Source: Candidatus Cacconaster equifaecalis (GTDB lineage: Bacteria; Bacteroidota; Bacteroidia; Bacteroidales; UBA932). From it: a stretch of DNA of 60,631 bases. The DNA lies in contig JAGHVE010000070.1 in assembly GCA_018064445.1 (NCBI GenBank), forward strand, positions 1 to 60,631. The letters are read 5' to 3'. This document shows positions 24,806 to 41,232 of the stretch, piece after piece. The position numbers were made by a program, and so were the translations under genes. Each line of letters starts with the position of its first letter. Position 1 is the stretch's first letter. The notes beneath the pieces were generated by a model. The model was given only the letters and a program-made list of their open reading frames with translations, was not told where the DNA came from and searched no databases.

Positions 24806-25891
24806 ATGGCTGAGAACAAATTACTGGAGAAACTTGGGGAATTGAAGGAGAAATACAATTCCATCGGAGATCAGCTCGCGGACCCCGAGGTGATTGCGGA
24901 TATGAAGAAATACGTGCAGCTCAACAAGGATTACAAGGAACTTGAGCCCATTGTTGCTGCGGGTGACAGATATGCCAAAATGCTTGGCGACCTTGCAGGA
25001 GCCAAGGAAATACTTCTGACCGAAAAGGATGAGGACCTCCGCGAAATGGCAAAGGAGGAGGCCGCCTCGATTGAAGAGACCATCCCCTCTATGGAGGAGG
25101 AGATAAGACTGCTTCTGATTCCCGCAGATCCCCAGGACGGCAAGAATGCGATTCTCGAGATCCGCGGCGGTACCGGAGGTGATGAGGCCGCCATCTTTGC
25201 AGGAGACCTGTTCCGTATGTATACCAAATATTTCGAGCGCCGCGGGTGGAAGTGTGAAGTGACCAATACATCAGAGGGTGCTGCCGGTGGCTATAAGGAG
25301 ATTGTCTGCAAGGTGAGCGGAGAGAAGGTTTACGGCACTCTCAAATACGAGAGCGGAGTGCACCGTGTGCAGCGTGTTCCCCAGACCGAGACTCAGGGAC
25401 GTGTCCATACTTCAGCCGCATCGGTGGTGGTCCTTCCGGAAGCCGATGAATTTGACGTGGAGATAGATATGAAGGATGTCCGCAAGGATACCTTCTGTTC
25501 CTCAGGTCCGGGCGGGCAGGGGGTCAACACGACCTATTCCGCCATCCGTCTCACCCATATCCCTTCAGGCATAGTCGTGCAGTGTCAGGATGAGCGCTCG
25601 CAACTCAAGAATCTCGACAAGGCGATGCAGGAACTCAGAACCCGTCTCTACAATCTTGAATACGAGAAATATCTCAACGACATCACCTCCAAGAGAAAGA
25701 CCATGGTTTCCACCGGAGACCGTAGCGCAAAGATCCGTACATACAACTACCCGCAGTCAAGGGTTACGGACCACCGCATCGGCTACACGATGTACAATCT
25801 TCCCGTCTTTATGGACGGCGACATCCAGGAAGTGATTGACCAGCTCCAGATTGCCGAGAACGCCGAGCGTCTCAAGGCCGCCGGGGAATAG
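24806..25891 (+). CDS. prfA: Peptide chain release factor 1
   Basis: 361 aa with the GGQ motif ([10 protein letters not shown]), an RF1-type tripeptide region ([17 protein letters not shown]) and no internal frameshift site. Confidence 0.97.
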
Positions 25892-25919
25892 TGCCGACGG
25901 GAATCGATTAATCTTTCTT

Positions 25920-28262
25920 ATGAAAAAGACACTTATAACTCTTTTCGCCCTTTTGCTGCTGTCAATGACCGGCTGGGGGCAGAACGTCCTCTGGTACGGC
26001 CAGAGCGCTAAGAACTGGAATGAAGCTCTGCCCGTCGGGAACGGGCGTATCGGAGCGATGGATTACGGCGGCAGCTGGTGCGAAGATATCCAGCTCAACG
26101 AAGAAAGCCTGTGGGCCGGATGCAGGACAGAAGGGGATGCCGATGCCGCGAAGTGGATTCCGGAGATACAGAAACTTCTGTTTGCCGACAAGATAACGGA
26201 GGCAAGGGACCTTGCCCGCGCAAAACTGATGGGCGATGTCGTCGGAGTACGCTCCTATCAGTCGTTCGGGAACCTGAAGATTGAATTCATCGAGGATGAC
26301 GAACGCGACGTTCAGTCCTTCCGCAGGGAACTGGACCTCTCCACAGGCATATCGCGGACCGTGTTCTCCGATAACGGCGTGACTTACACCCGTGAACTTT
26401 TCGCTTCCGCTCCGGATGACATACTCGTGCTCAGGATATCGGCGGACAAACCGGGAGCTCTGACTTTCAAGCTCTCATACAGCCGAGAACAGGATGCGTA
26501 CGCCAGCCCTGTCTCAAACGATGCTCTCGCAATCACCGGGCAGATAATTGACCTTCCCGAAGGAGGAAGATGCCCTGCCGGGCCCCATATGAAATTTGCC
26601 GGCCTGATAAAGGGAACCGCCAAAGGCGGAAAAATGATTACGGCAAACCAGTCATTCTTTGTTGAAGGGGCGGACGAGGCCGTCTTCCACATTGCAATGA
26701 ACACCGATTATGATGTCAGTCAGCTCAATTTCGACCACAACATAGACCCTGCGGCCATTTGCAAGGCTCAGATTGCCGCAGTCTCGGGTGATTATGCGGC
26801 GCTGAAAGAGAGGCATCTGAAGGAGTTCGATGAGATGTTCGGCCGTGTTTCACTGACCCTGGGCGACGAGGACAAGAGCGATATTCCGACCGACGTACGC
26901 CTCAAGGCTGTGCAGGAAGGAGCCACTGACCTCTCTCTCATCGCGACCTATTTCCAATACGGGAGATATCTGCTGATGTGCAGTTCAAGGGCTCCGGGAC
27001 GGCTCCCCGCAAATCTCCAGGGCATCTGGTGCAAGGATATGATAGCCCCATGGAACTCCGATTACCATACCAACATCAACATACAGATGAACTACTGGCC
27101 GGCCGAGGTGTGCAACCTGTCCGAGACCGTAGTTCCTTACTCAAATTGGATAGATGCCATCAGGGTGCCGGGCCGGGTCACCGCAAGCAAGACCTTCGGC
27201 GCAAAGGGGTGGACCGTCAATCACGTGTCCGACCTCTTCGGCCGTACTTCCATCAGTGACGGAGTGGACTGGGGTACTTTCCCGATAGCCGGTTCCTGGC
27301 TCACCCTCGCGCAGTGGGAGCACTATCTCTTCACTGAGGATGTCGAATATCTTGAGACAGTGGCATATCCCTGTATGAAGGAATCGGCCGAGTTCCTGCT
27401 TTCTTTTATGGTGGAGGACAGCAAGGGACGTCTCGTGACGGCGCCTTCCAACTCTCCCGAGAATTCCTATATCCTTCCGGACGGCAGCGAACACAGACTG
27501 ACCTACAGCGCCACGATGGACGTGGAAATCACTATGGAACTTCTGAATGCCTGCATCAAGGCTGCCGGCATTCTCGGCACGGACAAGGAATTCTGCAATG
27601 AGCTGAAGACCGCAATGGCCAAACTGCCTCCTCTGAAGGTCGGAGCGAACGGTACTCTTCAGGAGTGGATAGAGGATTACGATGAGGCGGAACCGGGCCA
27701 CAGGCATATGTCCCATCTGTTCGGTCTTCACCCCGGAACTACCATCACCCCTGCAGATCAGGACCTTTTCACCGCGGCAAAGAAAACCATCGAGCGTCGT
27801 CGCAAATACAACGAGGATCCCGAGACCCGTCGCGGGTCATATACCGGCTGGAGCCGCGCCTGGCTGATTAATTTCTATGCCCGTCTGATGGACGGCGAGG
27901 AGGCCGGAGCCAACGTGCAGGCCCTTCTTGCCAAGTCCACTCTGAACAATCTGTTCGACAATCACCCGCCATTCCAGATAGACGGAAACTTCGGCGGATG
28001 TGCGGGCATCGCGGAGATGCTGCTCCAGTCGCACACGGGTGAGATTGTCCTTCTGCCTGCCCTTCCTTCTTCCTGGAAGTGCGGGGAGGTGAAGGGGCTG
28101 CGTGCGCGCGGCGGATACACCGTGGACATTGCCTGGAAAGAGGGCAAAGTCACCGGGGCGACTGTGACGGCCGACAAAGCCTCGAAGGTGCGTGTCCGTA
28201 TCGGAGGCAAGGTCCAGACCCTCAAGGCGAAACCCGGCATTCCCGTGGCTGTGAAACTCTGA
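25920..28262 (+). CDS. Secreted GH95-family glycoside hydrolase (alpha-L-fucosidase type)
   Basis: I trimmed the start to the ATG at 25920 ([20 protein letters not shown]). The GH95 N-terminal pattern is [24 protein letters not shown] and the core motifs are NLQGIWC...[20 protein letters not shown] and [13 protein letters not shown]. Confidence 0.9.
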
Positions 28263-30612: not shown

Positions 30613-30723
30613 ATTACAATACGCTGACTTATGGACAATATTCAAACCAACCGCAAAACGGCTGACAATTTGTCACATTGTTGTCATAGCGAAAATTAAT
30701 TTGTCGAAAAGGGAAATAAGTGT

Positions 30724-30731
30724 TAAATTTG
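30724..30731 (+). promoter_or_regulatory. Candidate -7 box (TAAATTTG) for the cytochrome-FGE / oxidoreductase / TIM-barrel operon
   Basis: Exact TAnnTTTG match, 7 nt upstream of the ATG at 30739. This implies a leaderless or near-leaderless mRNA. Confidence 0.45.
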
Positions 30732-30738
30732 TGAGGAT

Positions 30739-32271
30739 ATGACAAGCGAGACGAAGCATAAACTTATCATAGCCTTATCCTGTGGCTTCGCCGGCGTGGC
30801 ATTGATGCTTGGCATCGACTATGCGGCCGGCAGAACATCTACCAACGACTATTGTGCATCCTGTCACGTTCACCCGGACGCCGACAAAAGCTGGAAACAG
30901 AGTTCCCACTTCCTGAACTCTTCAGGCACGATGGCCGACTGTGCGGAGTGTCACCTCCCTCCCAAGGACAATTACTTCCATCATATGGCCGCAAAGGCAG
31001 GCACGGGTATGAAAGACCTGATGTCCTATATGTTCAAGGATACCGAAAAGATTGACTGGGACTCCAGGAAGGAGCTTGAATATGCCACCGGAATCGTTTA
31101 CAACGAGTCCTGCCTGAAGTGTCATCACGACCTGTATCCGGAAGGAATCAGCGATGACGGCATCTCCGCCCACCTCTATTATGACGAACACGCCGAGGAA
31201 CTGGATCTGCAGTGCATAAACTGCCATCTGGACGTGGGGCACTACAATCCCGGCTATACCCATCAGCGTCTGAGCGGAATTGTCCGCGACATCGTGGGCG
31301 AGTCGAGGACAAAATATTCCGAGGCTACGGAAGTGACATCCTTCAGCTCTTTCGAGGAACATATTCCCGGTACTGCCGTAAGTCTGAAGATGGTAGCCGT
31401 CCCCGGCGGCAGCTTCACAATGGGCAGTCCGAAGAACGAACCTTTGCGCAATGAAAATGAGGGTCCGCAGCGTCAGGTGACTGTGTCGGACTTTTTTATG
31501 GGCGAGGTTGAGGTGACCTGGGACCAGTACTGGGCGTTCTACAACGAAACGATGTCCGAGGGACGTACTCCTCCCGAGAAGATATATCAGCACAACTCCA
31601 CTCCCGGAATCGATGCCGTCAGCGGTCCGACCCCTCCTTTCGGAAACCCGGATCAGGGCTGGGGGATGAACAGCCGTCCAGCGCTCACTATGACACATTA
31701 TGCCGCTGAGACGTTCTGCCAGTGGCTCAGCCTCAAGACAGGCAAGCATTACAGGCTTCCGACAGAAGCCGAATGGGAATATGCCGCAAGAGGCGGTTCC
31801 AGTACCCCATACTTCTTTGACGGAAATCCGAAGAAATTCTCGTCAAGAGGATTTCTCCGCAATGTCTTCAAGCCCGATACGGCTATGATAAACAGATATG
31901 TCATCTATGCTCTGAACAGCCGGAACCGTACTCAGATTCCTGATATGGTAGCCCCCAACCCGCTGGGATTGAAGAATATGCTCGGCAATGTGATGGAGTA
32001 TTGCTCCGACTGGTACGCCGAGGATGCATACAGTTCGCTGAAGGATGGTGCGGTTGACCCCAAGGGTCCTGCCGAAGGAACGGAACACGTTGTCCGCGGA
32101 GGTCTCTATAACAGCGATGCTGCGGAGGTGCGCAGCGCTTCCCGTGCCGCAACGAATCACGATGCGTGGCTGAAGACCGACCCGCAGAAACCCAAGAGCA
32201 TCTGGTGGTACTCGGACATCAAGGGAATAGGATTCCGCGTAGTGTGTGACTTGCCTGAAACGATTAAATAA
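30739..32271 (+). CDS. Membrane-anchored tetraheme NapC/NirT/NrfH-type cytochrome c fused to an FGE/SUMF1-fold (sulfatase-modifying-factor-like) domain
   Basis: 510 aa with an N-terminal TM helix ([20 protein letters not shown]). Four CxxCH motifs are present: CASCH at 30853-30867, CAECH at 30940-30954, CLKCH at 31111-31125 and CINCH at 31213-31227. The C-terminal ~300 aa carry FGE-sulfatase-domain motifs ([11 protein letters not shown]...[51 protein letters not shown]...GFRVV). Confidence 0.85.
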
Positions 32272-32281
32272 CCATAATATT

Positions 32282-33622
32282 ATGAGCAGCAAAAATTTAA
32301 ACCGCAGAGAGTTTCTCTCAATGTCAGCAGTCATCGGAGCCGGCGCAGTAGTGGCTCCTTCAATCCTTTCATCCTGTGCCAAGGGAAGCGGCAACACGCC
32401 TCTCCGCCCTGCAGGCTCCTATTACGTTCCCGAACTTCCCGACAAGGCTGATGCCGGACGCGAACTGAAAGTGGGCGTCATCGGATGCGGTGGCCGTGCC
32501 ACGGGTGCAACCATCAACCTCCTCGATGCAGCTGACGGCATCACCGTCTATGCTGCAGGTGACGTTTTTGCAGACAGAATCGCCAGTTTCCAGGAAACTA
32601 TCGGTGAAAGGGGACAGCACGTCGATCCCGAGCGCGTGTTCGTAGGCTTCGATGCATACAAGAAAGTCATCGACAGCGGAGTTGATATGGTCATCATCGC
32701 AACGCCTCCCGTATTCCGTCCCGAGCATTTCAAATATGCTACTGAAAAGGGCGTTCACTCTTTCCTTGAGAAACCTATCGCAGTGGATGCAAAGGGATAC
32801 CGTACCATTATGGCCACAGCGAAGCAGGCTGAAGCAAAGGGACTCAGCGTGGTTACCGGAACTCAGCGTCATCACCAGCGTCCTTACGTAGAAGCTTTCA
32901 AGCTCATTCAGGAAGGCGCAATCGGTGAGATTACCGGCGGTAACGTATATTGGAACCAGGGTATGCTCTGGTATCGTGAACGCGAAAAGGGCTGGAGCGA
33001 TATGGAATGGATGATCCGTGACTGGGTCAACTGGAAATGGCTCTCCGGAGACCATATCGTCGAGCAGCACGTCCACAATATCGACGTGTTCCTCTGGATG
33101 GCCGGAATGCACCCCGTGAAGGCTACTGCATTCGGTGCAAGACACCGCCGCAAGACAGGTGACCAGTACGACCAGTTCAGCGTCGATTTCGAATTCGAGA
33201 ACGGCATTCATCTTCACAGCATGTGCCGCCAGATAGACGGAACAAGCACCAACGTTTCAGAGTTCATTCAGGGTACGAAGGGAAGCTGGAACAGCGACGA
33301 GCACGTCATCAAGGACCTCAAGGGCAATGTGCTCTGGAAATATGAAGATGATCCCAAGTTCTCACAGTTCGACCCTTATGTTCTTGAGCACGTCGACTGG
33401 GTCAACCATATCAGAAGAGGTGAAGCCCACGTTGAGGCCGGTGATACCGGAATCTCAAGCCTTGCAGGCGTGATGGGCCGTGAAGCCGCATATACCGGAC
33501 AGACCGTCGAGTGGGACATCATCAGCAACTCAGACCTCGACTATATGCCGGCCAAACTCGAACTCGGTGCAATGCCTATGTCTGAGTACAAGGTGGCTGT
33601 TCCCGGTTCCGCAGAAGAATAG
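32282..33622 (+). CDS. Tat-signal Gfo/Idh/MocA-family NAD(P)-dependent oxidoreductase lipoprotein (GH109-like / glycoside 3-dehydrogenase-like)
   Basis: I trimmed the start to the ATG at 32282 (MSSKNLNRREFLSMSAVIGAGAVVAPSILSSC), which gives a twin-arginine motif plus a lipobox Cys. It has a Rossmann motif (KVGVIGCGGRATGA) and the family pattern EKPIAVD...GEI. It starts 10 nt after the upstream stop. Confidence 0.88.
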   Translation: MSSKNLNRREFLSMSAVIGAGAVVAPSILSSCAKGSGNTPLRPAGSYYVPELPDKADAGRELKVGVIGCGGRATGATINLLDAADGITVYAAGDVFADRIASFQETIGERGQHVDPERVFVGFDAYKKVIDSGVDMVIIATPPVFRPEHFKYATEKGVHSFLEKPIAVDAKGYRTIMATAKQAEAKGLSVVTGTQRHHQRPYVEAFKLIQEGAIGEITGGNVYWNQGMLWYREREKGWSDMEWMIRDWVNWKWLSGDHIVEQHVHNIDVFLWMAGMHPVKATAFGARHRRKTGDQYDQFSVDFEFENGIHLHSMCRQIDGTSTNVSEFIQGTKGSWNSDEHVIKDLKGNVLWKYEDDPKFSQFDPYVLEHVDWVNHIRRGEAHVEAGDTGISSLAGVMGREAAYTGQTVEWDIISNSDLDYMPAKLELGAMPMSEYKVAVPGSAEE

Positions 33623-33645
33623 AAACGTTGAAAACTCTACTTGCA

Positions 33646-34560
33646 ATGGACAGAAGAAATTTCATAAAGACATCTTCCTTCGGACTGACGGCGGCGGCCG
33701 TTGCCGGTAGCGGTGTGGTTTCGCTTTCATCCTGCTGCGGCAAGAGCGCTCCCGTGAAGAAGGACGTATCACTCAATATATCATTCCAGGAAGGGATTGC
33801 CCCGGGCGAGAGCCTCAATGAGAAGTTCGATTATATGGAGGAACTCGGTGTCGTAGGATTCGAACCCGGCGGAAGGGACCTTGCAAAACGTGTTCAGGAA
33901 ATACAGGATGCTCTCAAGGGACGCAATATCAAAGTTTCTGCAATCTGTGCCGGTTTCGACGGTTTCATCCTTGCGGAGGATCCGGCTGAGAAGACCGCAT
34001 TCGACACTACGATGCGTGAGATAATCGCGGCGGCCGGACAGCTCGGTTCCACCGGTGTCATAATGGTTCCCGCATTCAACGGCCAGCTCCCCTGCAAGCC
34101 CCATACCCGCGAGACCCGCGAGTTCCTTGTGGATGAACTTGCAAAGTTGGGTGAGTATGCTCTTAAATGCGGTACTACAGTGATTCTGGAGCCTCTCAAC
34201 CGTGAGGAGTGCCATTATCTGCGTCTTGTATCCGACGCTGCGGCAATCTGCCGTGACGTAAATTGCGAGGGCGTGAAATGTATGGGTGACTTCTGGCATA
34301 TGAAGGAGGAGACATCCGACTATGCAGCCTTCATAGCGGCGGGTACGAAGTATCTGCAGCACGTCCATATGGCAAGCCGTGGCAACCGCTGTATGCCGGG
34401 TGAGGACGGTGACAAGGACAATTACGTTGACGGATTCCGCGCACTCAAGGAGATAGGCTATGACAAATATGTCAGCTTCGAGTGCGGCTGCAAGGGTGAG
34501 CGTGAAATAAGTGTCCCTGCGGCAGTCGAGCTTATCCGTTCACAGTGGGAACAGGCGTAA
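33646..34560 (+). CDS. Tat-signal xylose-isomerase-like TIM-barrel protein (sugar phosphate isomerase/epimerase family) lipoprotein
   Basis: The ATG at 33646 gives MDRRNFIKTSSFGLTAAAVAGSGVVSLSSCC, a twin-arginine motif plus a lipobox. The ORF-track start at 33628 is TTG. AP_endonuc_2-type motifs are present (VILEPLNREE, GDFWHMKEE). Confidence 0.85.
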   Translation: MDRRNFIKTSSFGLTAAAVAGSGVVSLSSCCGKSAPVKKDVSLNISFQEGIAPGESLNEKFDYMEELGVVGFEPGGRDLAKRVQEIQDALKGRNIKVSAICAGFDGFILAEDPAEKTAFDTTMREIIAAAGQLGSTGVIMVPAFNGQLPCKPHTRETREFLVDELAKLGEYALKCGTTVILEPLNREECHYLRLVSDAAAICRDVNCEGVKCMGDFWHMKEETSDYAAFIAAGTKYLQHVHMASRGNRCMPGEDGDKDNYVDGFRALKEIGYDKYVSFECGCKGEREISVPAAVELIRSQWEQA

Positions 34561-35718: not shown

Positions 35719-36441
35719 ATGGAAACAAAGAAGAAACTTGTCGTCCTTTCCGGCTCCGGCATCAGCGCCGAGTCCGGAATCTCCACGTTCCGTGGGGGAA
35801 ACGGCCTTTGGGACAATGTGCCGGTAGAGGAGATATGTACCCCCGAAGGGTGGTATCGCAACCCCGCCAAGGTTCTGGAGTTCTACAATAAGCGCAGGGC
35901 TCAACTGGGTGAGGTTGAGCCGAACGATGCCCACAGAATAATAGTGGAGCTCGAAGCTGATTACAACGTCGAGGTAATCACACAGAACGTTGACAATCTT
36001 CACGAGAGGGCAGGCAGCCGCAATGTCCTGCACTTGCACGGAGAATTGACAAAAGTGCGTCCGGAAGACTGTTATACGGACCGGGACGGCTATTCGATGA
36101 AATATGTGTCCGATATCGGATATCGGTCGGTGAATATGGGTGAGACCGGAGGCCCGCGGAACAGGCAGCTCCGTCCCCATATAGTCTGGTTCGGAGAGGC
36201 GGTCCCCAATCTTGAGAGGGCGGCTGCTATCGTGCAGGAGGCGGATATCCTTCTGGTGATAGGGACATCGATGCAGGTCTATCCGGCCGCGATGCTCCAC
36301 AGGTATGCGCCGTCAGGCTGCAGAATCTATATGATTGACCCTGCGGATGAACCTGCGGGAGCCATCAGGGGTGTGACGCATATCAAGGATGTGGCCACTT
36401 CTGGAATGAGGCAGTTCCGGAAGTTACTGAATAAAGACTGA
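35719..36441 (+). CDS. cobB: Sir2-family NAD-dependent protein deacylase lacking the canonical Zn-binding cysteines
   Basis: 240 aa with GSGISAESGISTFRG, TQNVDNLHERAG, the catalytic His in LHLHGE, LRPHIVWFGE and a GTS motif. The whole protein has only 3 Cys and no CxxC. Confidence 0.88.
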   Translation: METKKKLVVLSGSGISAESGISTFRGGNGLWDNVPVEEICTPEGWYRNPAKVLEFYNKRRAQLGEVEPNDAHRIIVELEADYNVEVITQNVDNLHERAGSRNVLHLHGELTKVRPEDCYTDRDGYSMKYVSDIGYRSVNMGETGGPRNRQLRPHIVWFGEAVPNLERAAAIVQEADILLVIGTSMQVYPAAMLHRYAPSGCRIYMIDPADEPAGAIRGVTHIKDVATSGMRQFRKLLNKD

Positions 36442-37935
36442 CTGCTTGAGAATATCTTTCAGAGTCTCCGCATCAATGTCCTTGGCTATGATGGTTTTGT
36501 CGTAGTCGAGCAGATAGAGGTGCGGGACATACTCAAGGTCATAGAGACGGTGCATTTCGCTATCTCCGTTCTTGTCCCAAAGGTAGCGCCAGTTTTTCGG
36601 CCCTTTCTTCACATACTCTTTCCACAGCTCTTCATCTTTGCCGGTATAAACGGCCACTACCCGGATGCTGTAGGATTTCAGAAGGGATTTGATTTTTACC
36701 AGTTCCCTGGTCATAGCCTCGCATTCCTCACAGGATACAAGGTGAAAGAATACCAGAGTGAGTTCGGGACCACATTCGTCATAGAGGGTTGACAACTTTC
36801 CCTTGGAGTTGTGAAGCAGCAGATTCTTTGCCTGCGAAAAGACTGGATTCAACTTCTCCTTCTCCAGTGCGTAGGATATTTTGTCAATGAATTCCTCCGA
36901 CCAGTACCAGGGTTCGCCTATGATATAGTCCCGGGCCACATTGACGGCCCCCTGCTGCAGCGCATATTGCCGGCTTGACCTGAGGTAGTTGAACAGATTG
37001 TAAAACACTTCCCTGTACAGGGTGGTGTCTCCGTCAACCTTCTTGTAGAAGTCTTTCGCCAGATAGTCCACGTCTTCCGGCATCACGGGCTCCAAATTGC
37101 TGAAAATCTTGTCGTACAGCTCGAAATAATCCTTGACGTCCTTATTTTTGATTCCCAGCAACTGGGACAGATTCTTTGCGTTGATTTTTCTCCCTATTAT
37201 GATGTTCTGATTGTCCATCAGATACATCATCGGAGTGGTGAAGATGCCGTATTTCTTGTGCATCAGGCTTTCGGCATCCGGGTCCCACAGGTTCACCACC
37301 CGTACCTTGGGATTTGCCATGCTGTCGAAATTAGCCTTGATATAACTGTCCCACGCGCCTAAGTCATCGGCCGTGTTCACCGCCACAAGGCAAAGGGGCT
37401 CGCCGTCGTAGACGCTCAGGAACTGTTTCAAGCCGGCTGTATATCTGGCGCAGGAGGAACATCCCGGCTCGTAGAAATAGAGAACCTTGAAGGGGGAGTC
37501 TATATTTCTGAAACTGACGGTTTCCCCGTCGGTATCTTTCAGCTCCAATTCGGGAGCCGGACGGCCCAGCAGCGAACTTTTCGTGAATTCGACGAAGGTG
37601 GAGAGCCAGGGGAAGGTGGCTTCATCGGGCCATTTGAGCCTGCCGTTGAGAAAGTAATTCTCAGCCACATAAACGGATACGGCTTCCGTCCCCATTATGG
37701 GACAGGAGTTGTAATAGTCATATGCAAGCCCTGCGGCAGCCGCACGGTTGCCGGAAGCGGAGTCAATCTGTGCTATGAGCCTGTCAACCCTGTCGCATAT
37801 CGTATCTGCGGGAAGCATCGCAATCGAGGCATAATACTCTTTCACGGAATCGTGTATCGAAAGCGTGTCCTGAGCCTGTGACAGCATCGTTGACGCTGTC
37901 AGAAACAGAATGATATGCAGCAGTTTCCTTCTCAC
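36424..37935 (-). CDS. Secreted TlpA/thioredoxin-like protein with two thioredoxin-fold modules
   Basis: 503 aa with a GTG start (GTGA overlap with the coaD stop) and a signal peptide ending SQAQD. CxxC motifs are CSSC (nt 37450-37461) and CEEC (nt 36721-36732), each in a TlpA-like context (FKVLYFYEPGCSSC; TLVFFHLVSCEEC). Confidence 0.72.
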   Translation of the reverse strand: MRRKLLHIILFLTASTMLSQAQDTLSIHDSVKEYYASIAMLPADTICDRVDRLIAQIDSASGNRAAAAGLAYDYYNSCPIMGTEAVSVYVAENYFLNGRLKWPDEATFPWLSTFVEFTKSSLLGRPAPELELKDTDGETVSFRNIDSPFKVLYFYEPGCSSCARYTAGLKQFLSVYDGEPLCLVAVNTADDLGAWDSYIKANFDSMANPKVRVVNLWDPDAESLMHKKYGIFTTPMMYLMDNQNIIIGRKINAKNLSQLLGIKNKDVKDYFELYDKIFSNLEPVMPEDVDYLAKDFYKKVDGDTTLYREVFYNLFNYLRSSRQYALQQGAVNVARDYIIGEPWYWSEEFIDKISYALEKEKLNPVFSQAKNLLLHNSKGKLSTLYDECGPELTLVFFHLVSCEECEAMTRELVKIKSLLKSYSIRVVAVYTGKDEELWKEYVKKGPKNWRYLWDKNGDSEMHRLYDLEYVPHLYLLDYDKTIIAKDIDAETLKDILKQSVFIQ

Positions 37936-38431: not shown

Positions 38432-39745
38432 TTAGATATACATATTTATGATTGTCTCATAGAGTTCCTGCTTGCCGCTGACTGCCTTGGGCTCGCCCTT
38501 GCTCTTCGCGTAGTCGACAACTTCCTCAAGAGTCATCTCGCCCTTCTCGAAACGTTTTCCGACACCGCTGTCGAAAGAGGCATAGCGCTGGGCACGCATC
38601 TTCTCGACGGGGGATTTCTCGATGATTTCGGCAGCTACCTCAAGGGCGCGTGCCATTGCATCCATTCCGGCGATGTGAGCGATGAAGATGTCTTCTGGAT
38701 CGGTTGAGTTGCGGCGCAGTTTTGCATCGAAGTTGCTGCCTCCGACGAGACCTCCGTTGCGGATGACGACCAACATTGCCTGGACCAGCTCGTAAATGTC
38801 GATGGGGAACTGGGCGGTATCCCAACCGTTCTGGTAATCACCTCTGTTTGCGTCTATTGAGCCGAGAAGTCCGGCATCGGCGGCGCACTGAAGCTCGTGC
38901 TCGAAGGTGTGGCCCGCAAGCGTGGCGTGGTTCACCTCGATGTTGACCTTGAAATCCTTGTCAAGACCGTGGGCCTTGAGGAATCCGATGACGGTCTCCG
39001 TATCGACGTCATATTGATGTTTGGTAGGCTCCATAGGCTTGGGCTCGATGAGGAAGGTACCCTTGAATCCCTTCTTGCGGGCATAATCGCGGGCCATTCC
39101 AAGCATTGTTGCCAGATGCTCCTTCTCACGTTTCATATCGGTGTTGAGCAGGGTGCAGTAGCCTTCGCGGCCTCCCCAGAACACATAGCACTCCCCGCCA
39201 AGTTCGATGGTGGCGTCGATGGCATTCTTTATCTGTACCATTGCGCGTGCCGCCGTGTCGAAATCAGGGTTTGTCGCGGCACCGTTCATATATCTCTTGT
39301 GACCGAAGACGTTGGCGGTGCCCCAGAGGTTCTTGATGTCCGTTCCGGCCATCTTTGACTTGACGTATGCCACGACTTCCTTCAGATTGGATTCATATTT
39401 TTCGATGGTGTCGGCCTCGTCGACAAGGTCCACGTCGTGGAAGCAGAAGTATTCGATGCCGAGTTTTGTCATAATCTCGAATCCTGCGTCAACTTTGTGT
39501 TTGGCGCGCTCGACAGGGTTGTCGCTGTCATTCCAGGGGAAAGTTTTGGTGCCGCCGCCGAACTGGTCGGAACCTTCCGCACAGAGAGTGTGCCACCAGG
39601 CCATCGCGAATTTCAGCCAGTCCTTCATTTTCTTGCCGGCCACCACCTTTTCGGGGTCATAGTAGTGGAATGCAAGGGGGTTTTTTGATTCTTTTCCTTC
39701 GAATTTGATTTTTCCTATTTCAGGAAAGTACTCTTTTGTTGCCAT
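38432..39745 (-). CDS. xylA: Xylose isomerase
   Basis: 437 aa with [28 protein letters not shown] and [10 protein letters not shown]. Confidence 0.97.
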
Positions 39746-39753
39746 AACTTATG

Positions 39754-41232
39754 TTAATTTAATGATTTGTCAAGTATTCTCTTCCAGTTCCCGTAGGTAT
39801 CTTCAAGCGTCTGCTTCCAGGAGGAATCGGGGTCCACATCACCGACTTTTGTCAGTGTTGAGAATGCTTCCTGCTCCGATTTGTAAAGACCGGCTCCAAG
39901 CGCGCCGCCACGGGCTGCTCCAAGGGCTCCGTCGGTGTCGAACAATTCGATTCTTGCGTCCGTCAGTGTCGCAAGGGTGGTTCTGAAGAGCGGACTTAGG
40001 AAGAGGTTGGCTTTTCCCGCCCTGATGACGGATGGGACAAGCCCGAGTTCTTTCATGGTGTCGATGCCATATCTGAAGGAAAATGCGATTCCTTCCTGCA
40101 CTGCACGGAAGATATGGGAGCGGTTGTGCCTGACAAGGTCCAGGCCGTTGAATGATGCTCCGGCGGTGGCATTGCAAAGCACCCTTTCGGCTCCGTTGCC
40201 GAACGGAATTACGGTCAACCCGTCGCATCCGGCCGGAGCGGTCCGGGCAATCTCATTCATCTCAGCATAGCCGTTTTCGGGAGATATGTTGTGGTGGACC
40301 CAGGAGTTCATTATCCCTGTGCCGTTTATGCAGAGCAGGACACCGAGTCTGGGGGATGAAGCCGTGTTGTTGACGTGCAGGAAGGTGTTCACCCTGCTCG
40401 CACTGTCAGCCTTCGGTACGTCGGTTACTCCATAGACCACTCCGCTGGTGCCACCTGTTGCCGCGATTTCTCCTGGGTTGAGTACGTTCAGGGAGAATGC
40501 GTTGTTGGGCTGGTCACCCGCTCTGTATGATACCGGTGTGCCTGCGGGTATTCCCGTCAGGTTTTGGAAGTCTTCCGTGGTTTTTGCGGCCACTCCGATG
40601 GAAGGGGCGATGTCCGGAATCAGTCCTGTGCCAATCCCGAAATGGTCGGCGACGAAGTCTGCGCGGCATGAATTCCTGAAATCCCAGAGAATCTGTTCCG
40701 ACAGGCCGGTTTCGGTTGTGGAGACCTCGCCGGTGAGTTTGTACACGATGTAGTCTCCGGGCAACATGAATTTCCAGACACGACTGTAGATTTCCGGCTG
40801 GTTCTCTTTTACCCAGGCCAGTTTCGAGGCTGTGAAGTTGCCCGGCGAGTTGAGAAGGTGGCTCAGACATCTTTCGGGGCCGAGTTCCTCAAAGGCCCGG
40901 GCGCCTGTGGACACTGCTCTGGAGTCGCACCAGATGATGGCGTCCCGAAGCGGGCAAACCTGCCGGTCCACTGCCACAAGGCCGTGCATCTGGTAGGTGA
41001 CACCGATTGATTTCACTTTTGCAAGATTGCACTTGGAGGCAATGTCGCGAATGCCTTCACAAACATATTTCCACCACATTTCCGGGTCCTGTTCCGCAAA
41101 TCCTTTCTGTGGGGCGCTGATGGGCATTTCCCTGGAGGGATTTGTGGAGGAGGCGGCAAGCTTTCCGGATTCAATGTCCAGCAGAGCCACCTTTATGGAC
41201 GAAGAGCCTATGTCAATACCTAGAGAATACAT
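39754..41232 (-). CDS. xylB: FGGY-family carbohydrate kinase, probable xylulokinase
   Basis: 492 aa with the FGGY N-terminus (YSLGIDIGSSSIKVALLD). It ends 8 nt upstream of xylA. The substrate is inferred from this adjacency. Confidence 0.82.
   Translation of the reverse strand: MYSLGIDIGSSSIKVALLDIESGKLAASSTNPSREMPISAPQKGFAEQDPEMWWKYVCEGIRDIASKCNLAKVKSIGVTYQMHGLVAVDRQVCPLRDAIIWCDSRAVSTGARAFEELGPERCLSHLLNSPGNFTASKLAWVKENQPEIYSRVWKFMLPGDYIVYKLTGEVSTTETGLSEQILWDFRNSCRADFVADHFGIGTGLIPDIAPSIGVAAKTTEDFQNLTGIPAGTPVSYRAGDQPNNAFSLNVLNPGEIAATGGTSGVVYGVTDVPKADSASRVNTFLHVNNTASSPRLGVLLCINGTGIMNSWVHHNISPENGYAEMNEIARTAPAGCDGLTVIPFGNGAERVLCNATAGASFNGLDLVRHNRSHIFRAVQEGIAFSFRYGIDTMKELGLVPSVIRAGKANLFLSPLFRTTLATLTDARIELFDTDGALGAARGGALGAGLYKSEQEAFSTLTKVGDVDPDSSWKQTLEDTYGNWKRILDKSLN

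What the first reader, a model, noticed from the sequence alone, without database searches (positions are those of the whole stretch)
30739..32271. Tetraheme NapC/NirT-type cytochrome fused to an FGE/SUMF1-fold domain that lacks the FGE catalytic cysteines
One polypeptide combines a single N-terminal TM helix with four CxxCH haem-binding motifs spaced as in NapC/NirT/NrfH quinol dehydrogenases (nt 30853-30867, 30940-30954, 31111-31125, 31213-31227). A ~300-aa FGE-sulfatase-type domain follows. Genuine formylglycine-generating enzymes have the copper-binding Cys pair in GGS(Y/F)xCHxSYCxRYR. This protein instead reads [21 protein letters not shown] (nt ~32095-32148), with neither cysteine. The domain is therefore unlikely to make formylglycine. 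It more closely resembles the non-FGE members of the fold (GldK/PorK, NirV, PvdO-like). A quinol-linked haem wire welded to such a domain is not an architecture I can assign to any characterised enzyme. It suggests a periplasmic redox partner or scaffold that connects the menaquinone pool to a bound substrate or partner protein.
Basis: partly seen in the sequence, partly recalled or inferred. Interest (0 to 1): 0.65.

Follow-up and report, generated by a model that had tools for sequence, protein, structure and literature searches.

The report
Haem-wire partner of periplasmic sugar dehydrogenase
This membrane-anchored four-haem cytochrome fused to a non-catalytic FGE-like domain is real, common in gut Bacteroidales and unstudied, and it most likely carries electrons from a neighbouring periplasmic sugar dehydrogenase to the menaquinone pool, probably through a covalently attached flavin.

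Summary
ORF 30739-32271 (510 aa) has one N-terminal membrane helix, four CxxCH motifs at the stated coordinates, and an FGE-fold domain in which the two FGE copper cysteines are Ser459 and Val464. It is not an assembly artefact: thousands of full-length homologues exist, and at least 578 species genomes carry a relative.

In about 80 Bacteroidales loci it heads a conserved cassette: cyt-FGE, then a TAT-exported Gfo/Idh/MocA dehydrogenase, then a TAT-exported xylose-isomerase-like TIM barrel. ResB/CcsA haem-attachment genes often follow.

The FGE-like domain belongs to a distinct subfamily with two invariant inserts. One insert, D292-AVSGP-T298, resembles the ApbE flavinylation motif D-x-x-[S/T]-G-A-[S/T], and distant homologues have exactly DAISGAT or DAITGAT. 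Stand-alone members always sit beside the orthologous dehydrogenase and often beside apbE. Some are fused to unrelated cytochrome c domains, or share operons with a 3-keto-disaccharide hydrolase or a lactonase.

Best explanation: an electron-accepting subunit passing electrons from sugar to Gfo-bound NAD(P)H, then FMN on Thr298, four haems and menaquinone. Flavinylation and the direction of flow are inferred. I found no paper describing this.

The parts
30739..32271 (+). Gene for the 510-aa membrane-anchored tetrahaem cytochrome c fused to an FGE-like domain ('cyt-FGE')
   Evidence: ORF. Pfam PF03264 plus PF03781. More than 7000 homologues, with the best 120 all 498-549 aa (nearly all 503-527) and carrying both domains.
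30763..30825 (+). N-terminal transmembrane anchor, residues about 9-29. K6/H7/K8 lie on the cytoplasmic side and the rest of the protein is periplasmic.
   Evidence: Hydrophobic stretch in the sequence. AlphaFold2 helix over residues 3-32. It aligns with the NrfH membrane helix.
30853..30867 (+). Haem 1 motif C39-A-S-C42-H43. It is followed by invariant H45 at the position of NrfH Met49.
30940..30954 (+). Haem 2 motif C68-A-E-C71-H72
   Evidence: Invariant in all aligned homologues.
30994..31017 (+). K86...D93, invariant residues that align with the NrfH quinol-site residues Lys82 and Asp89
   Evidence: Alignment to 2j7a_C (weak overall, E 0.2, but anchored by the haem motifs). Invariance. The role of NrfH K82/D89 is from my own knowledge of the NrfH structure papers.
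31111..31125 (+). Haem 3 motif C125-L-K-C128-H129
31213..31227 (+). Haem 4 motif C159-I-N-C162-H163. Invariant H168 follows. H45, H57, H145 and H168 are candidate distal ligands.
31354..32253 (+). FGE-fold (FGE-sulfatase, PF03781) domain, residues about 206-505, of a distinct subfamily that is not a formylglycine-generating enzyme
   Evidence: Pfam. PDB sequence hits to FGE and PvdO. AlphaFold2 model of the domain with pLDDT 75.7 and pTM 0.80. Foldseek FGE 2e-14 and PvdO 1e-13.
31612..31632 (+). D292-A-V-S-G-P-T298, an invariant subfamily-specific loop that resembles the ApbE flavinylation motif D-x-x-[S/T]-G-A-[S/T]. Thr298 is the proposed FMN attachment site.
   Evidence: Sequence. All 120 fused homologues have DAVSGPT or DAISGPT. 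Distant homologues have exact DAISGAT or DAITGAT. Thr or Ser is always present at this position. Motif definition from PMC12052999 and PMC8238504. Loop peptides from homologues hit only a handful of Pfam families, among them FMN_bind and DUF2271, both weakly.
32095..32157 (+). R453-N473, the region equivalent to the FGE active-site segment GGSYxCHxSYCxRYR. Ser459 (nt 32113-32115) and Val464 (nt 32128-32130) replace the two copper cysteines.
   Evidence: Alignments to 6s07, 5nxl, 31dc and 2aft.
32167..32217 (+). W477[16 protein letters not shown]493, the second invariant subfamily-specific insert (signature DPxxPxSxWW), located next to the former FGE active site
   Evidence: Present in all 120 fused and all 120 stand-alone homologues. 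Absent from generic FGE loci. Low pLDDT over residues 480-487.
32282..33622 (+). TAT-exported Gfo/Idh/MocA oxidoreductase (signal N-R-R-E-F-L; Rossmann motif GCGGRATG; EKP motif). Proposed sugar dehydrogenase partner.
   Evidence: Pfam and NCBIfam, including TAT_signal. Syntenic in about 80 loci. Orthologue at 42% identity, E 4e-102, beside stand-alone FGE-like genes.
33646..34560 (+). TAT-signal xylose-isomerase-like TIM-barrel protein. An alternative TTG start lies at 33628. Proposed keto-sugar epimerase, isomerase or lyase acting on the dehydrogenase product.
   Evidence: Pfam PF01261. PDB 3kws at 3e-123 and YcjR 3-keto-D-glucoside 4-epimerase (6wn6) at 1e-26. Syntenic.

Best explanation
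The gene encodes the membrane-bound, electron-accepting subunit of a periplasmic sugar dehydrogenase system.

Proposed pathway: the TAT-exported Gfo/Idh/MocA enzyme encoded next door (32282-33622) oxidises a sugar or glycoside hydroxyl using tightly bound NAD(P)+. The FGE-like domain of cyt-FGE is its dedicated partner. It has lost FGE chemistry and instead carries, on a flexible subfamily-specific loop, an FMN attached by ApbE to Thr298 within D292AVSGPT298. The flavin takes the hydride from the enzyme-bound NAD(P)H and hands electrons one at a time to the four c-type haems of the NapC/NirT-type domain. Those haems reduce menaquinone at a site near haem 1 (K86/D93). The menaquinol is then used by fumarate reductase or cytochrome bd. 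The TIM-barrel protein (33646-34560) processes the keto-sugar product.

Shown here: the domain architecture, the loss of the FGE cysteines, the invariance of the haem motifs and of Thr298, the strict co-occurrence with the orthologous Gfo enzyme, the apbE linkage in homologues, and independent fusions to other cytochrome c domains.

Inferred: that FMN is actually attached, that NAD(P)H is re-oxidised by it, the direction of electron flow, and the substrate.
For: 1. Real and widespread. More than 7000 homologues were found. Relatives occur in at least 578 species genomes of Alistipes, Cryptobacteroides, Rikenellaceae, Muribaculaceae and Bacteroidaceae.

2. Conserved cassette. The order cyt-FGE, Gfo(TAT), TIM(TAT), then often ResB and CcsA, holds in nearly all of 83 loci, within different flanking genes.

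3. Haem and quinol-site residues. The haem motifs, four further histidines, and K86/D93 are invariant down to 38% identity. K86/D93 align with the NrfH quinol-site residues K82/D89.

4. Strict pairing with the dehydrogenase. Every locus whose FGE-like ORF has the subfamily signature (DPxxPxSxW[WYF], a slightly looser form than the DPxxPxSxWW scripted) and enough adjoining sequence, except L113, has the orthologous TAT Gfo gene beside it, whether the FGE-like protein is fused or stand-alone. About 50 generic FGE loci have none.

5. apbE linkage. apbE is adjacent to stand-alone or otherwise fused members in at least four different gene orders: divergent in Gemmataceae; ApbE-FGElike-Gfo in L103; Gfo-cytFGE-ApbE in L112; and Gfo, 3-keto-disaccharide hydrolase, FGElike, ApbE in L117.

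6. Only candidate target. The FGE-like protein is the only periplasmic protein in these clusters with a flavinylation-like motif. Ten of the twelve Gfo orthologues extracted (the window and L008 came out in the wrong frame) have none.

7. Motif fit. The motif matches D-x-x-[S/T]-G-A-[S/T] exactly in several lineages, and the terminal residue is always Thr or Ser. Loop peptides from homologues hit FMN_bind and DUF2271, two known ApbE-substrate families, among five weak hits from 24,736 Pfam models.

8. Independent cytochrome fusions. The same FGE-like subfamily is fused to two PSCyt1 domains in L123 and to a monohaem CxxCH domain in L112.

9. Net oxidation. Neighbouring genes include a 3-keto-disaccharide hydrolase (L117), a lactonase plus sugar transporter (L112), ThuA plus a second Gfo (L096) and TIM barrels (window, L090, L103).

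10. Export logic, from established knowledge. Haem c proteins are exported unfolded by Sec. ApbE flavinylation is therefore the known way to equip such a protein with a flavin, and a flavin is the usual converter between two-electron and one-electron carriers such as NAD(P)H and haem.

11. Thermodynamics, from established knowledge. A sugar alcohol/ketone couple or NAD(P)H is more reducing than menaquinone (-74 mV), which favours flow into the quinone pool.
Against: - In this window and in all Bacteroidales the residue before Thr298 is Pro, not Ala (GPT rather than GAT). In Gemmataceae the Gly is often Arg (RPT). I know of no proven ApbE substrate with these residues.
- No apbE lies in the window, or within 6 kb of the gene in 83 Bacteroidales loci. 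A housekeeping ApbE elsewhere in the genome has to be assumed.
- The Pfam hits of the loop peptides are statistically weak (E about 0.1), and the window's own loop gave no hit.
- I know of no precedent for a Gfo/Idh/MocA enzyme being re-oxidised by a protein-bound flavin. Known periplasmic members (GFOR, aldose-aldose oxidoreductase) recycle their cofactor with a second sugar.
- AlphaFold2 models the motif loop with low confidence, and I could not inspect coordinates, so the geometry is untested.
- The substrate is unknown.
- NapC/NirT proteins usually work as quinol oxidases, so the proposed direction is the less common one.
Confidence: 0.6

Rival explanations
1. Cofactor-less docking domain. 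The FGE-like domain carries no flavin. It only binds the Gfo dehydrogenase, or a sugar, since the FGE fold is related to C-type lectins, and so holds it near the haem wire. The conserved DAVSGPT loop is structural or part of the interface.
For: The Gfo partnership is strict. The window motif departs from the canonical GAT. No apbE lies near the gene in Bacteroidales. TorC-type proteins show that NapC-like cytochromes can carry a C-terminal partner-docking domain (own knowledge).
Against: This leaves no chemically plausible route from a nicotinamide hydride to one-electron haems. It does not explain the repeated apbE adjacency in four gene orders. It does not explain the invariant Thr/Ser, or the exact DAISGAT/DAITGAT motifs in other lineages.
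Confidence: 0.2
2. Reverse direction: a quinol-fed periplasmic reductase. Menaquinol reduces the haems, as in classical NapC/NirT/NrfH systems. Electrons then pass through the FGE-like domain to the Gfo enzyme, which reduces a keto-sugar or another acceptor as a terminal respiratory step.
For: The NapC/NirT family normally oxidises quinols. The K86/D93 quinol-site residues are conserved. Gfo enzymes are reversible.
Against: Menaquinol (-74 mV) is a poor reductant for flavin/NAD(P)+ or for ketone reduction (established redox potentials). Neighbouring genes in homologous clusters process oxidation products: a 3-keto-disaccharide hydrolase, a lactonase and ThuA.
Confidence: 0.1
3. The FGE-like domain is itself a catalyst. 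Like PvdO, annotated as a dihydropyoverdine dehydrogenase, it would oxidise a small molecule and pass the electrons to the haems. A candidate substrate is an enediol or keto-sugar made by the Gfo and TIM enzymes.
For: PvdO is among the closest relatives by sequence and by fold. The two subfamily inserts flank the former FGE active site. C422 is invariant across fused and stand-alone forms.
Against: The PvdO NCBIfam score is 96 against a cutoff of 500. To my knowledge no cofactor or catalytic residues are defined for PvdO. This idea does not explain the apbE linkage unless a flavin is involved, in which case it merges with the main explanation. It also leaves the Gfo cofactor unrecycled.
Confidence: 0.08
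4. A genuine or alternative formylglycine-generating enzyme that matures sulfatases, with the haems supplying electrons, or an assembly artefact that joins two genes.
For: The Pfam FGE-sulfatase hit. Source annotations read 'formylglycine-generating enzyme required for sulfatase activity' and 'SUMF1/EgtB/PvdO family nonheme iron enzyme'.
Against: Both catalytic cysteines are absent, and no cysteine replaces them in the family. The hosts are strict anaerobes, while FGE needs O2 (established knowledge). There is no conserved sulfatase neighbour. The fusion is present in thousands of independent assemblies.
Confidence: 0.02

Closest known systems
NapC/NirT/NrfH/CymA/TorC family of membrane-anchored multihaem quinol dehydrogenases (PF03264)
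   Same: Single N-terminal membrane helix. Four CxxCH motifs with family spacing. Pfam score far above threshold. Lys/Asp pair aligned with the NrfH quinol site. Like TorC, a tetrahaem NapC-like module carries an extra C-terminal domain that faces the partner enzyme.
   Different: Scores are far below every NCBIfam equivalog cutoff for NrfH, NapC and TorC. Haem 1 has CxxCHxH instead of the NrfH CxxCHxM. The C-terminal domain is an FGE fold, not a haem domain. The partner is an NAD(P)-type sugar dehydrogenase, not a nitrate, nitrite or TMAO reductase. The probable direction of flow is into the quinone pool.
FGE-sulfatase fold proteins: formylglycine-generating enzyme (SUMF1), PvdO, GldK/PorK, EgtB C-terminal domain
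   Same: Same fold: Foldseek FGE 2e-14 and PvdO 1e-13. The core motifs [11 protein letters not shown] and GNVxE (the FGE Ca2+-site region) and the terminal GFR are conserved.
   Different: The copper-binding cysteine pair is replaced by Ser and Val. Two subfamily-specific invariant inserts are present, [18 protein letters not shown] and [17 protein letters not shown]. Scores are below the PvdO, GldK and EgtB cutoffs. The protein is always paired with a Gfo/Idh/MocA gene.
ApbE-flavinylated extracytosolic electron-transfer proteins (FMN_bind domains of NqrC, RnfG and PplA; DUF2271; DUF3570; flavinylated fumarate and urocanate reductases)
   Same: Extracytoplasmic location. A conserved D-x-x-[S/T]-G-[A/P]-[T/S] loop. 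apbE beside homologues. Association with cytochromes and respiratory chains.
   Different: The carrier fold would be new for flavinylation: the flavinylation surveys I read do not mention FGE or Gfo. The window motif has Pro at position -1. Flavin attachment is unproven.
Membrane-bound flavocytochrome sugar dehydrogenases (glucoside 3-dehydrogenase LacABC; FAD-type fructose and gluconate dehydrogenases with a cytochrome c subunit)
   Same: Periplasmic sugar oxidation is fed through a flavin and c-type haems into the respiratory quinone pool. In some homologous loci the system is linked to 3-keto-glycoside processing enzymes (DUF1080 hydrolase).
   Different: The catalytic subunit here is a TAT-exported NAD(P)-binding Gfo/Idh/MocA protein, not a GMC/FAD enzyme. 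The flavin would sit on a separate FGE-fold domain. The cytochrome is a NapC-type tetrahaem membrane anchor.
Periplasmic or keto-sugar Gfo/Idh/MocA systems: Zymomonas GFOR, B. thetaiotaomicron BT2158 glycoside 3-dehydrogenase with the BT2157 hydrolase, E. coli YcjS/YcjR
   Same: The partner dehydrogenase has a TAT signal and an intact NAD(P) site, like GFOR and BT2158. The TIM-barrel neighbour resembles YcjR 3-keto-D-glucoside 4-epimerase (1e-26).
   Different: The window Gfo is not in the BT2158 family (21 bits against a cutoff of 750). The known systems recycle the cofactor with a second sugar or with free NAD+. For BT2158 the acceptor is explicitly unknown (PMC8121099). Here a dedicated haem protein is genetically coupled.

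Membership tests
NapC/NirT cytochrome c family (PF03264) | Profile match above the curated threshold | tested here: met
   84.1 bits against a cutoff of 24.1, residues 6-171 covering profile positions 6-172 of 174.
NapC/NirT cytochrome c family (PF03264) | Single N-terminal transmembrane anchor followed by a periplasmic haem domain | tested here: met
   Hydrophobic residues 9-29. AlphaFold2 helix over residues 3-32. Aligns with the NrfH helix.
NapC/NirT cytochrome c family (PF03264) | Four CxxCH haem c attachment motifs, conserved in orthologues | tested here: met
   C39, C68, C125 and C159 motifs. Invariant in 13 sequences down to 38% identity and in 55 closer ones.
NapC/NirT cytochrome c family (PF03264) | Conserved Lys/Asp near haem 1 forming the quinol site (NrfH K82/D89) | tested here: met
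   K86 and D93 align with NrfH K82 and D89 and are invariant. The alignment is weak overall (E 0.2) but is anchored by the haem motifs.
NrfH, NapC or TorC (specific equivalogs) | NCBIfam equivalog score above cutoff | tested here: not met
   NrfH 65.6 against 134; napC_nirT 46.4 against 311; TorC 57 against 478.
NapC/NirT cytochrome c family (PF03264) | Covalent haem content and quinol/quinone oxidoreductase activity | not testable with these tools
   Needs haem staining, spectroscopy and quinone assays.
Formylglycine-generating enzyme (FGE/SUMF1) | FGE-sulfatase fold | tested here: met
   PF03781 at 1.4e-40. PDB FGE hits at 1e-21. Foldseek 2e-14.
Formylglycine-generating enzyme (FGE/SUMF1) | Two copper-binding catalytic cysteines (human C336 and C341) | tested here: not met
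   Ser459 and Val464 occupy these positions. No cysteine is present there in any homologue.
PvdO / GldK-PorK / EgtB | NCBIfam equivalog score above cutoff | tested here: not met
   GldK 101 against 350; PvdO 96 against 500; EgtB 50 against 360.
ApbE flavinylation substrates | Sequence motif D-x-x-[S/T]-G-A-[S/T] with the terminal Ser/Thr flavinylated | tested here: inconclusive
   The window has D-A-V-S-G-P-T, 6 of 7 positions, with Pro for Ala. Distant fused and stand-alone homologues have exact DAISGAT, DAITGAT or DAVSGAT. Thr/Ser is invariant. Motif definition from PMC12052999.
ApbE flavinylation substrates | Extracytoplasmic location of the motif | tested here: met
   The motif lies C-terminal to a membrane anchor and a haem c domain, which must be periplasmic. 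Stand-alone homologues have signal peptides.
ApbE flavinylation substrates | Genomic association with apbE | tested here: inconclusive
   Not met in the window or in 83 Bacteroidales loci. Met for homologues in four different gene orders, with ApbE confirmed by Pfam at 7.5e-70 and 5.7e-68.
ApbE flavinylation substrates | Covalently bound FMN demonstrated | not testable with these tools
   Needs co-expression with ApbE, in-gel fluorescence and mass spectrometry.
Periplasmic Gfo/Idh/MocA dehydrogenases with tightly bound NAD(P) (the partner gene, 32282-33622) | TAT signal, Rossmann GxGxxG motif and EKP motif | tested here: met
   NRREFL signal with an NCBIfam TAT_signal hit. GCGGRATG and FLEKP in the sequence. 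TAT signals in nine of the ten in-frame orthologues; L112 is cut at its 5' end.

The most novel reading that the evidence does not exclude
The FGE fold has been recruited as a new class of ApbE-flavinylated redox domain. The cyt-FGE protein would then be the missing respiratory electron acceptor for periplasmic, TAT-exported Gfo/Idh/MocA dehydrogenases that carry bound NAD(P). This would define a new type of sugar:menaquinone oxidoreductase. It would let gut Bacteroidales couple periplasmic oxidation of sugars or glycosides directly to fumarate respiration. It might also serve other Gfo enzymes in trans, such as BT2158-type glycoside 3-dehydrogenases, whose acceptor is unknown.
Probability: 0.4. 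Interest if true: 0.85.

Novelty: new variant of a known kind. Interest (0 to 1): 0.78.

Why it matters
Periplasmic Gfo/Idh/MocA dehydrogenases carry out the first step of 3-keto-glycoside pathways in Bacteroides, which handle disaccharides and glucosinolates. How their bound cofactor is re-oxidised is an acknowledged gap: Liu et al. 2021 (PMC8121099) could only suggest 'another as yet unidentified sugar'. The cassette found here is dedicated, widely conserved and genetically coupled to haem attachment genes. It offers a concrete and testable answer for at least one Gfo subfamily, namely electrons entering the menaquinone pool.

If the Thr298 flavin is confirmed, three things follow. A new fold joins the list of ApbE substrates. 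A function is given to a large 'FGE-like' subfamily that is currently annotated as sulfatase-maturing or non-haem iron enzymes. A previously unrecognised respiratory input is added for abundant gut anaerobes such as Alistipes, Parabacteroides, Bacteroidaceae and Muribaculaceae.

Tried and rejected
- **Literature.** Eight full-text searches found no description of this fusion or of a Gfo-ApbE link. They covered glycoside 3-dehydrogenase with cytochrome c, BT2157-2159, NapC with sulfatase-modifying factor, MocA with NapC and FGE, flavinylation with formylglycine, and MocA with ApbE and periplasm. One search was too broad to be useful. A ninth attempt failed on term syntax.
- **Supplementary fitness tables.** Those of PMC8121099 are not held, so I could neither identify a B. 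thetaiotaomicron orthologue nor read its phenotypes.
- **Full-length AlphaFold2 model.** It was poor (pLDDT 63). The domain-only model was better (75.7), but the motif loops stayed below 50. Coordinates are not exposed, so I could not measure the distances from Thr298 to the WW motif or to the haem domain.
- **PDB sequence search of the haem domain.** A plain search found nothing at E<=1e-3. NrfH appeared only at E 0.2.
- **Ideas considered and rejected.** A true FGE, because the cysteines are absent. A fusion artefact. The Gfo protein as the ApbE target, because ten of the twelve orthologues extracted (two came out in the wrong frame) lack the motif. An adjacent separate cytochrome in stand-alone loci, which is mostly absent.
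- **Promoter and terminator scan.** The sigma-70-type scan is not informative for Bacteroidales.
Full report
**1.

ORF 30739..32271 on the + strand encodes 510 residues. Residues 9-29 form a hydrophobic anchor. Pfam reports Cytochrom_NNT (NapC/NirT) on residues 6-171 (E 1.2e-23) and FGE-sulfatase on residues 217-473 (E 1.4e-40). Alignments to solved FGE structures place Ser459 and Val464 where human FGE has its copper-binding cysteines C336 and C341. The domain therefore cannot be a formylglycine-generating enzyme. NCBIfam's best hits are GldK, PvdO, NrfH and TorC, and all fall far below their family cutoffs. The NCBI name for near-identical proteins is the generic 'SUMF1/EgtB/PvdO family nonheme iron enzyme'.

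**2. It is neither an artefact nor rare**

A search of 5.8 billion proteins returned more than 7000 hits at E<=1e-10. The best 120 were all 498-549 residues (nearly all 503-527) and carried both domains. The closest, at 95% identity, is from 'Candidatus Cacconaster scatequi'. The rest come from Alistipes, Cryptobacteroides, Rikenellaceae, Muribaculaceae and Bacteroidaceae MAGs. At the 50% identity clustering level only a few more full-length clusters exist (P0123, P0124, P0128, P0191). In an alignment reaching 38% identity the following are all invariant:
- all eight haem cysteines and the four proximal histidines;
- four further histidines (H45, H57, H145, H168), enough for four bis-His haems;
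- K86 and D93.

K86 and D93 align with Lys82 and Asp89 of Desulfovibrio NrfH. From my own knowledge of that structure, these residues line the menaquinol site at haem 1. NrfH Met49 is replaced here by invariant His45.

**3. Genomic context**

In the window the gene is followed by two genes.
- The first is a Gfo/Idh/MocA oxidoreductase with a twin-arginine signal. Its true start is the ATG at 32282, and it ends at 33622.
- The second is a xylose-isomerase-like TIM-barrel protein, also with a twin-arginine-type signal, running to 34560.

The flanking genes are housekeeping: ClpB upstream, then GAPDH and Sir2 downstream.

A scripted tblastn census of 83 loci found cyt-FGE, Gfo and TIM in that order wherever enough sequence was present, except in two loci (L068, L080) where the Gfo hit fell below the 1e-8 cutoff, and within differing surroundings. 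In most Alistipes and Cryptobacteroides loci the system II cytochrome c biogenesis genes ResB and CcsA follow directly. Alistipes has an extra cupin-like ORF between Gfo and TIM. The TIM protein matches PDB 3kws, an uncharacterised 'putative sugar isomerase', at 3e-123. Its next match is E. coli YcjR, a 3-keto-D-glucoside 4-epimerase, at 1e-26. The Gfo protein's PDB matches are all weak; among the best are YjhC, a glucuronide 3-dehydrogenase and inositol dehydrogenases. It is not in the BT2158 family.

**4. The FGE-like domain belongs to a distinct subfamily**

Two inserts that are absent from true FGE are invariant: D292[17 protein letters not shown]309 and W477[16 protein letters not shown]493. 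The same two signatures occur in stand-alone, signal-peptide FGE-like proteins of 320-370 residues. These are abundant in Gemmataceae and other environmental bacteria.

Gene-neighbourhood look-ups for five such proteins, eight contigs in all, gave the same picture each time. The orthologous TAT Gfo gene lies immediately downstream wherever the contig extends past the FGE-like gene (L086 ends there), at 42% identity to the window's (E 4e-102). An ApbE flavin-transferase gene lies immediately upstream on the other strand.

A metagenome scan with a subfamily alignment returned 80 further loci. Every locus whose FGE-like ORF has the signature (DPxxPxSxW[WYF], a slightly looser form than the DPxxPxSxWW scripted) and enough adjoining sequence, except L113, has the orthologous Gfo beside it. 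About 50 generic FGE loci without the signature have none.

**5. The flavinylation lead**

ApbE attaches FMN to the last residue of D-x-x-[S/T]-G-A-[S/T] in extracytoplasmic proteins (PMC12052999; PMC8238504). The first subfamily insert reads as follows in different groups:

| Group | Motif |
|---|---|
| All 120 Bacteroidales homologues | DAVSGPT or DAISGPT |
| More distant fused and stand-alone members (P0124, P0128, P0149, L090, L092, L093, L096, L106) | DAISGAT, DAITGAT or DAVSGAT, an exact match |
| Gemmataceae | DA[VI][ST][GR]PT |
| L103, L104, L113 | ends in Ser |

The hydroxyl residue at the final position is never lost.

ApbE, confirmed by Pfam at 7.5e-70 and 5.7e-68, is adjacent in at least four different gene orders:
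- divergent from the FGE-like gene;
- ApbE, FGE-like, Gfo (L103);
- Gfo, cyt-FGE-like, ApbE (L112);
- Gfo, 3-keto-disaccharide hydrolase, FGE-like, ApbE (L117).

The Gfo orthologues contain no such motif, so the FGE-like protein is the only plausible ApbE target in these clusters. Forty-residue loop peptides from two homologues, scanned against all 24,736 Pfam models, hit five families in all, among them FMN_bind and DUF2271, both proven ApbE-substrate families. The matches were weak (E 0.07-0.13) and the window's own loop gave no hit. AlphaFold2 models both inserts as low-confidence, probably mobile, loops. A trend is visible: lineages with the most divergent motif (RPT or RPS) usually keep a dedicated apbE next door, while GAT and GPT lineages usually do not. 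That would fit a specialised transferase, but it is only a trend.

**6. Independent cytochrome fusions and product-processing neighbours**

The same FGE-like subfamily is fused to two PSCyt1 monohaem domains in L123 and to a different CxxCH domain in L112. Such repeated fusion to unrelated cytochrome c modules is hard to explain unless the FGE-like domain takes part in electron transfer.

Neighbouring genes in homologous clusters include:
- a DUF1080 3-keto-disaccharide hydrolase (L117);
- a lactonase plus an MFS sugar transporter (L112);
- ThuA plus a second Gfo (L096);
- TIM barrels (L090, L103).

These enzymes consume oxidised sugars. The Gfo step is therefore a net oxidation that needs an external electron acceptor.

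**7. Mechanism**

*Shown:* the architecture, topology, conservation, strict Gfo partnership, apbE linkage in relatives, and alternative cytochrome fusions.

*Inferred from established principles:*
- Haem c proteins are exported unfolded through Sec, so they cannot bring a non-covalent flavin with them. ApbE flavinylation is the known way to supply one.
- A flavin is the usual adaptor between a two-electron hydride donor such as NAD(P)H and one-electron haems.
- Sugar alcohol/ketone and NAD(P)H couples are more reducing than menaquinone, so flow from sugar to quinone is favoured.

My model is therefore: sugar, then Gfo-bound NAD(P)H, then FMN on Thr298 (perhaps acting as a swinging arm that enters the Gfo active site like a second substrate), then four haems, then menaquinone at the K86/D93 site, then fumarate reductase or cytochrome bd. 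The TIM barrel would convert the keto-sugar product.

My estimates for the separate claims are:

| Claim | Probability |
|---|---|
| Dedicated partnership with the Gfo enzyme | about 0.9 |
| A redox-relay role for the FGE-like domain | about 0.75 |
| Covalent FMN on Thr298 | about 0.55 |
| Oxidative direction of flow | about 0.7 |

The substrate is unknown.

**8. Weak points**

- Pro297 replaces the canonical Ala.
- No apbE lies within 6 kb in any Bacteroidales locus or anywhere in the window. These organisms are known to have NQR and therefore should have an ApbE elsewhere, but I did not verify that for this genome.
- The Pfam loop hits are statistically weak.
- I know of no precedent for flavin-mediated re-oxidation of a Gfo enzyme.
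- I could not examine model coordinates.
- The rivals are a flavin-free docking domain, reverse (reductive) flow, and a PvdO-like catalytic role. They are listed with the results that would separate them from the main explanation.

**9. Comparison with known systems, and novelty**

The haem half is a bona fide NapC/NirT-family member, but not NrfH, NapC or TorC. The C-terminal half has the FGE fold (Foldseek scores FGE and PvdO about equally). It fails the defining catalytic feature of FGE and the curated cutoffs of PvdO, GldK and EgtB.

In function the closest analogues are the membrane-bound flavocytochrome sugar dehydrogenases, such as the LacABC glucoside 3-dehydrogenase, and TorC-type NapC fusions. 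No paper in the searchable library describes the fusion, an FGE-fold flavinylation substrate, or any Gfo-ApbE link. Liu et al. 2021 explicitly leave open the electron acceptor of the periplasmic Bacteroides Gfo dehydrogenase BT2158.

I classify the finding as a new variant of a known kind, namely a periplasmic dehydrogenase wired through flavin and haem c to the quinone pool. It is built from an unprecedented combination of parts, and the first decisive experiment is simple: test for flavin on Thr298.

Noticed in passing
window 36424-37935 (- strand): A 503-aa secreted protein with two thioredoxin-like domains (AhpC/TSA and Thioredoxin_8) and two CxxC motifs (CSSC and CEEC), about 4 kb downstream of the cassette. 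It could be a ResA/TlpA-type reductant for apocytochrome CxxCH motifs. This window lacks the ResB/CcsA genes that follow the cassette in Alistipes.
   Followed up: partly
L008 9046-9639 (Alistipes; similar gap in other Alistipes loci): An extra ORF of about 197 aa lies between Gfo and TIM in Alistipes. It looks like a WbuC-type cupin (recognised from the sequence, not tested) and appears to lack a signal peptide.
   Followed up: no
L085 3613-4794 (-), L087 3688-4869 (-), L084 4611-5804 (-): A conserved protein of about 393 aa with no Pfam match and no obvious signal peptide sits directly downstream of apbE in most Gemmataceae loci. An 86-aa ORF often follows, and in L085 an NDH-2-type flavoprotein. 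It may be another component of the stand-alone system.
   Followed up: partly
L117 4389-5705; L112 3574-4821 and 5119-6438; L096 8326-10863: Homologous Gfo/FGE-like clusters carry a double-domain 3-keto-disaccharide hydrolase (PF06439), a lactonase plus an MFS sugar transporter, or a second Gfo plus ThuA. Different members of the module therefore probably oxidise different sugar positions (C3 versus C1).
   Followed up: partly
window 30724-30731: TAAATTTG matches the Bacteroides -7 promoter consensus TAnnTTTG (recalled from memory) but lies only 8 nt upstream of the ATG. That would imply a nearly leaderless transcript. A 7-of-8 match, TTAATTTG, lies at 30696-30703.
   Followed up: no
window 25836-28262 (+) and 38432-41232 (-): A GH95 family glycoside hydrolase (alpha-L-fucosidase type) lies upstream beyond ClpB. 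Downstream there is a second xylose-isomerase-like protein of 437 aa next to an FGGY sugar kinase, probably xylose isomerase and xylulokinase. Neither is syntenic with the cassette in other genomes.
   Followed up: partly
window 32003-32005 (Cys422 of cyt-FGE): Cys422, in the EYCSDW motif, is invariant across both fused and stand-alone subfamily members. True FGE has Thr/Ala at this position, in the WEW(T/C)SDW region. Its role is unknown, but it could lie near the proposed flavin.
   Followed up: no
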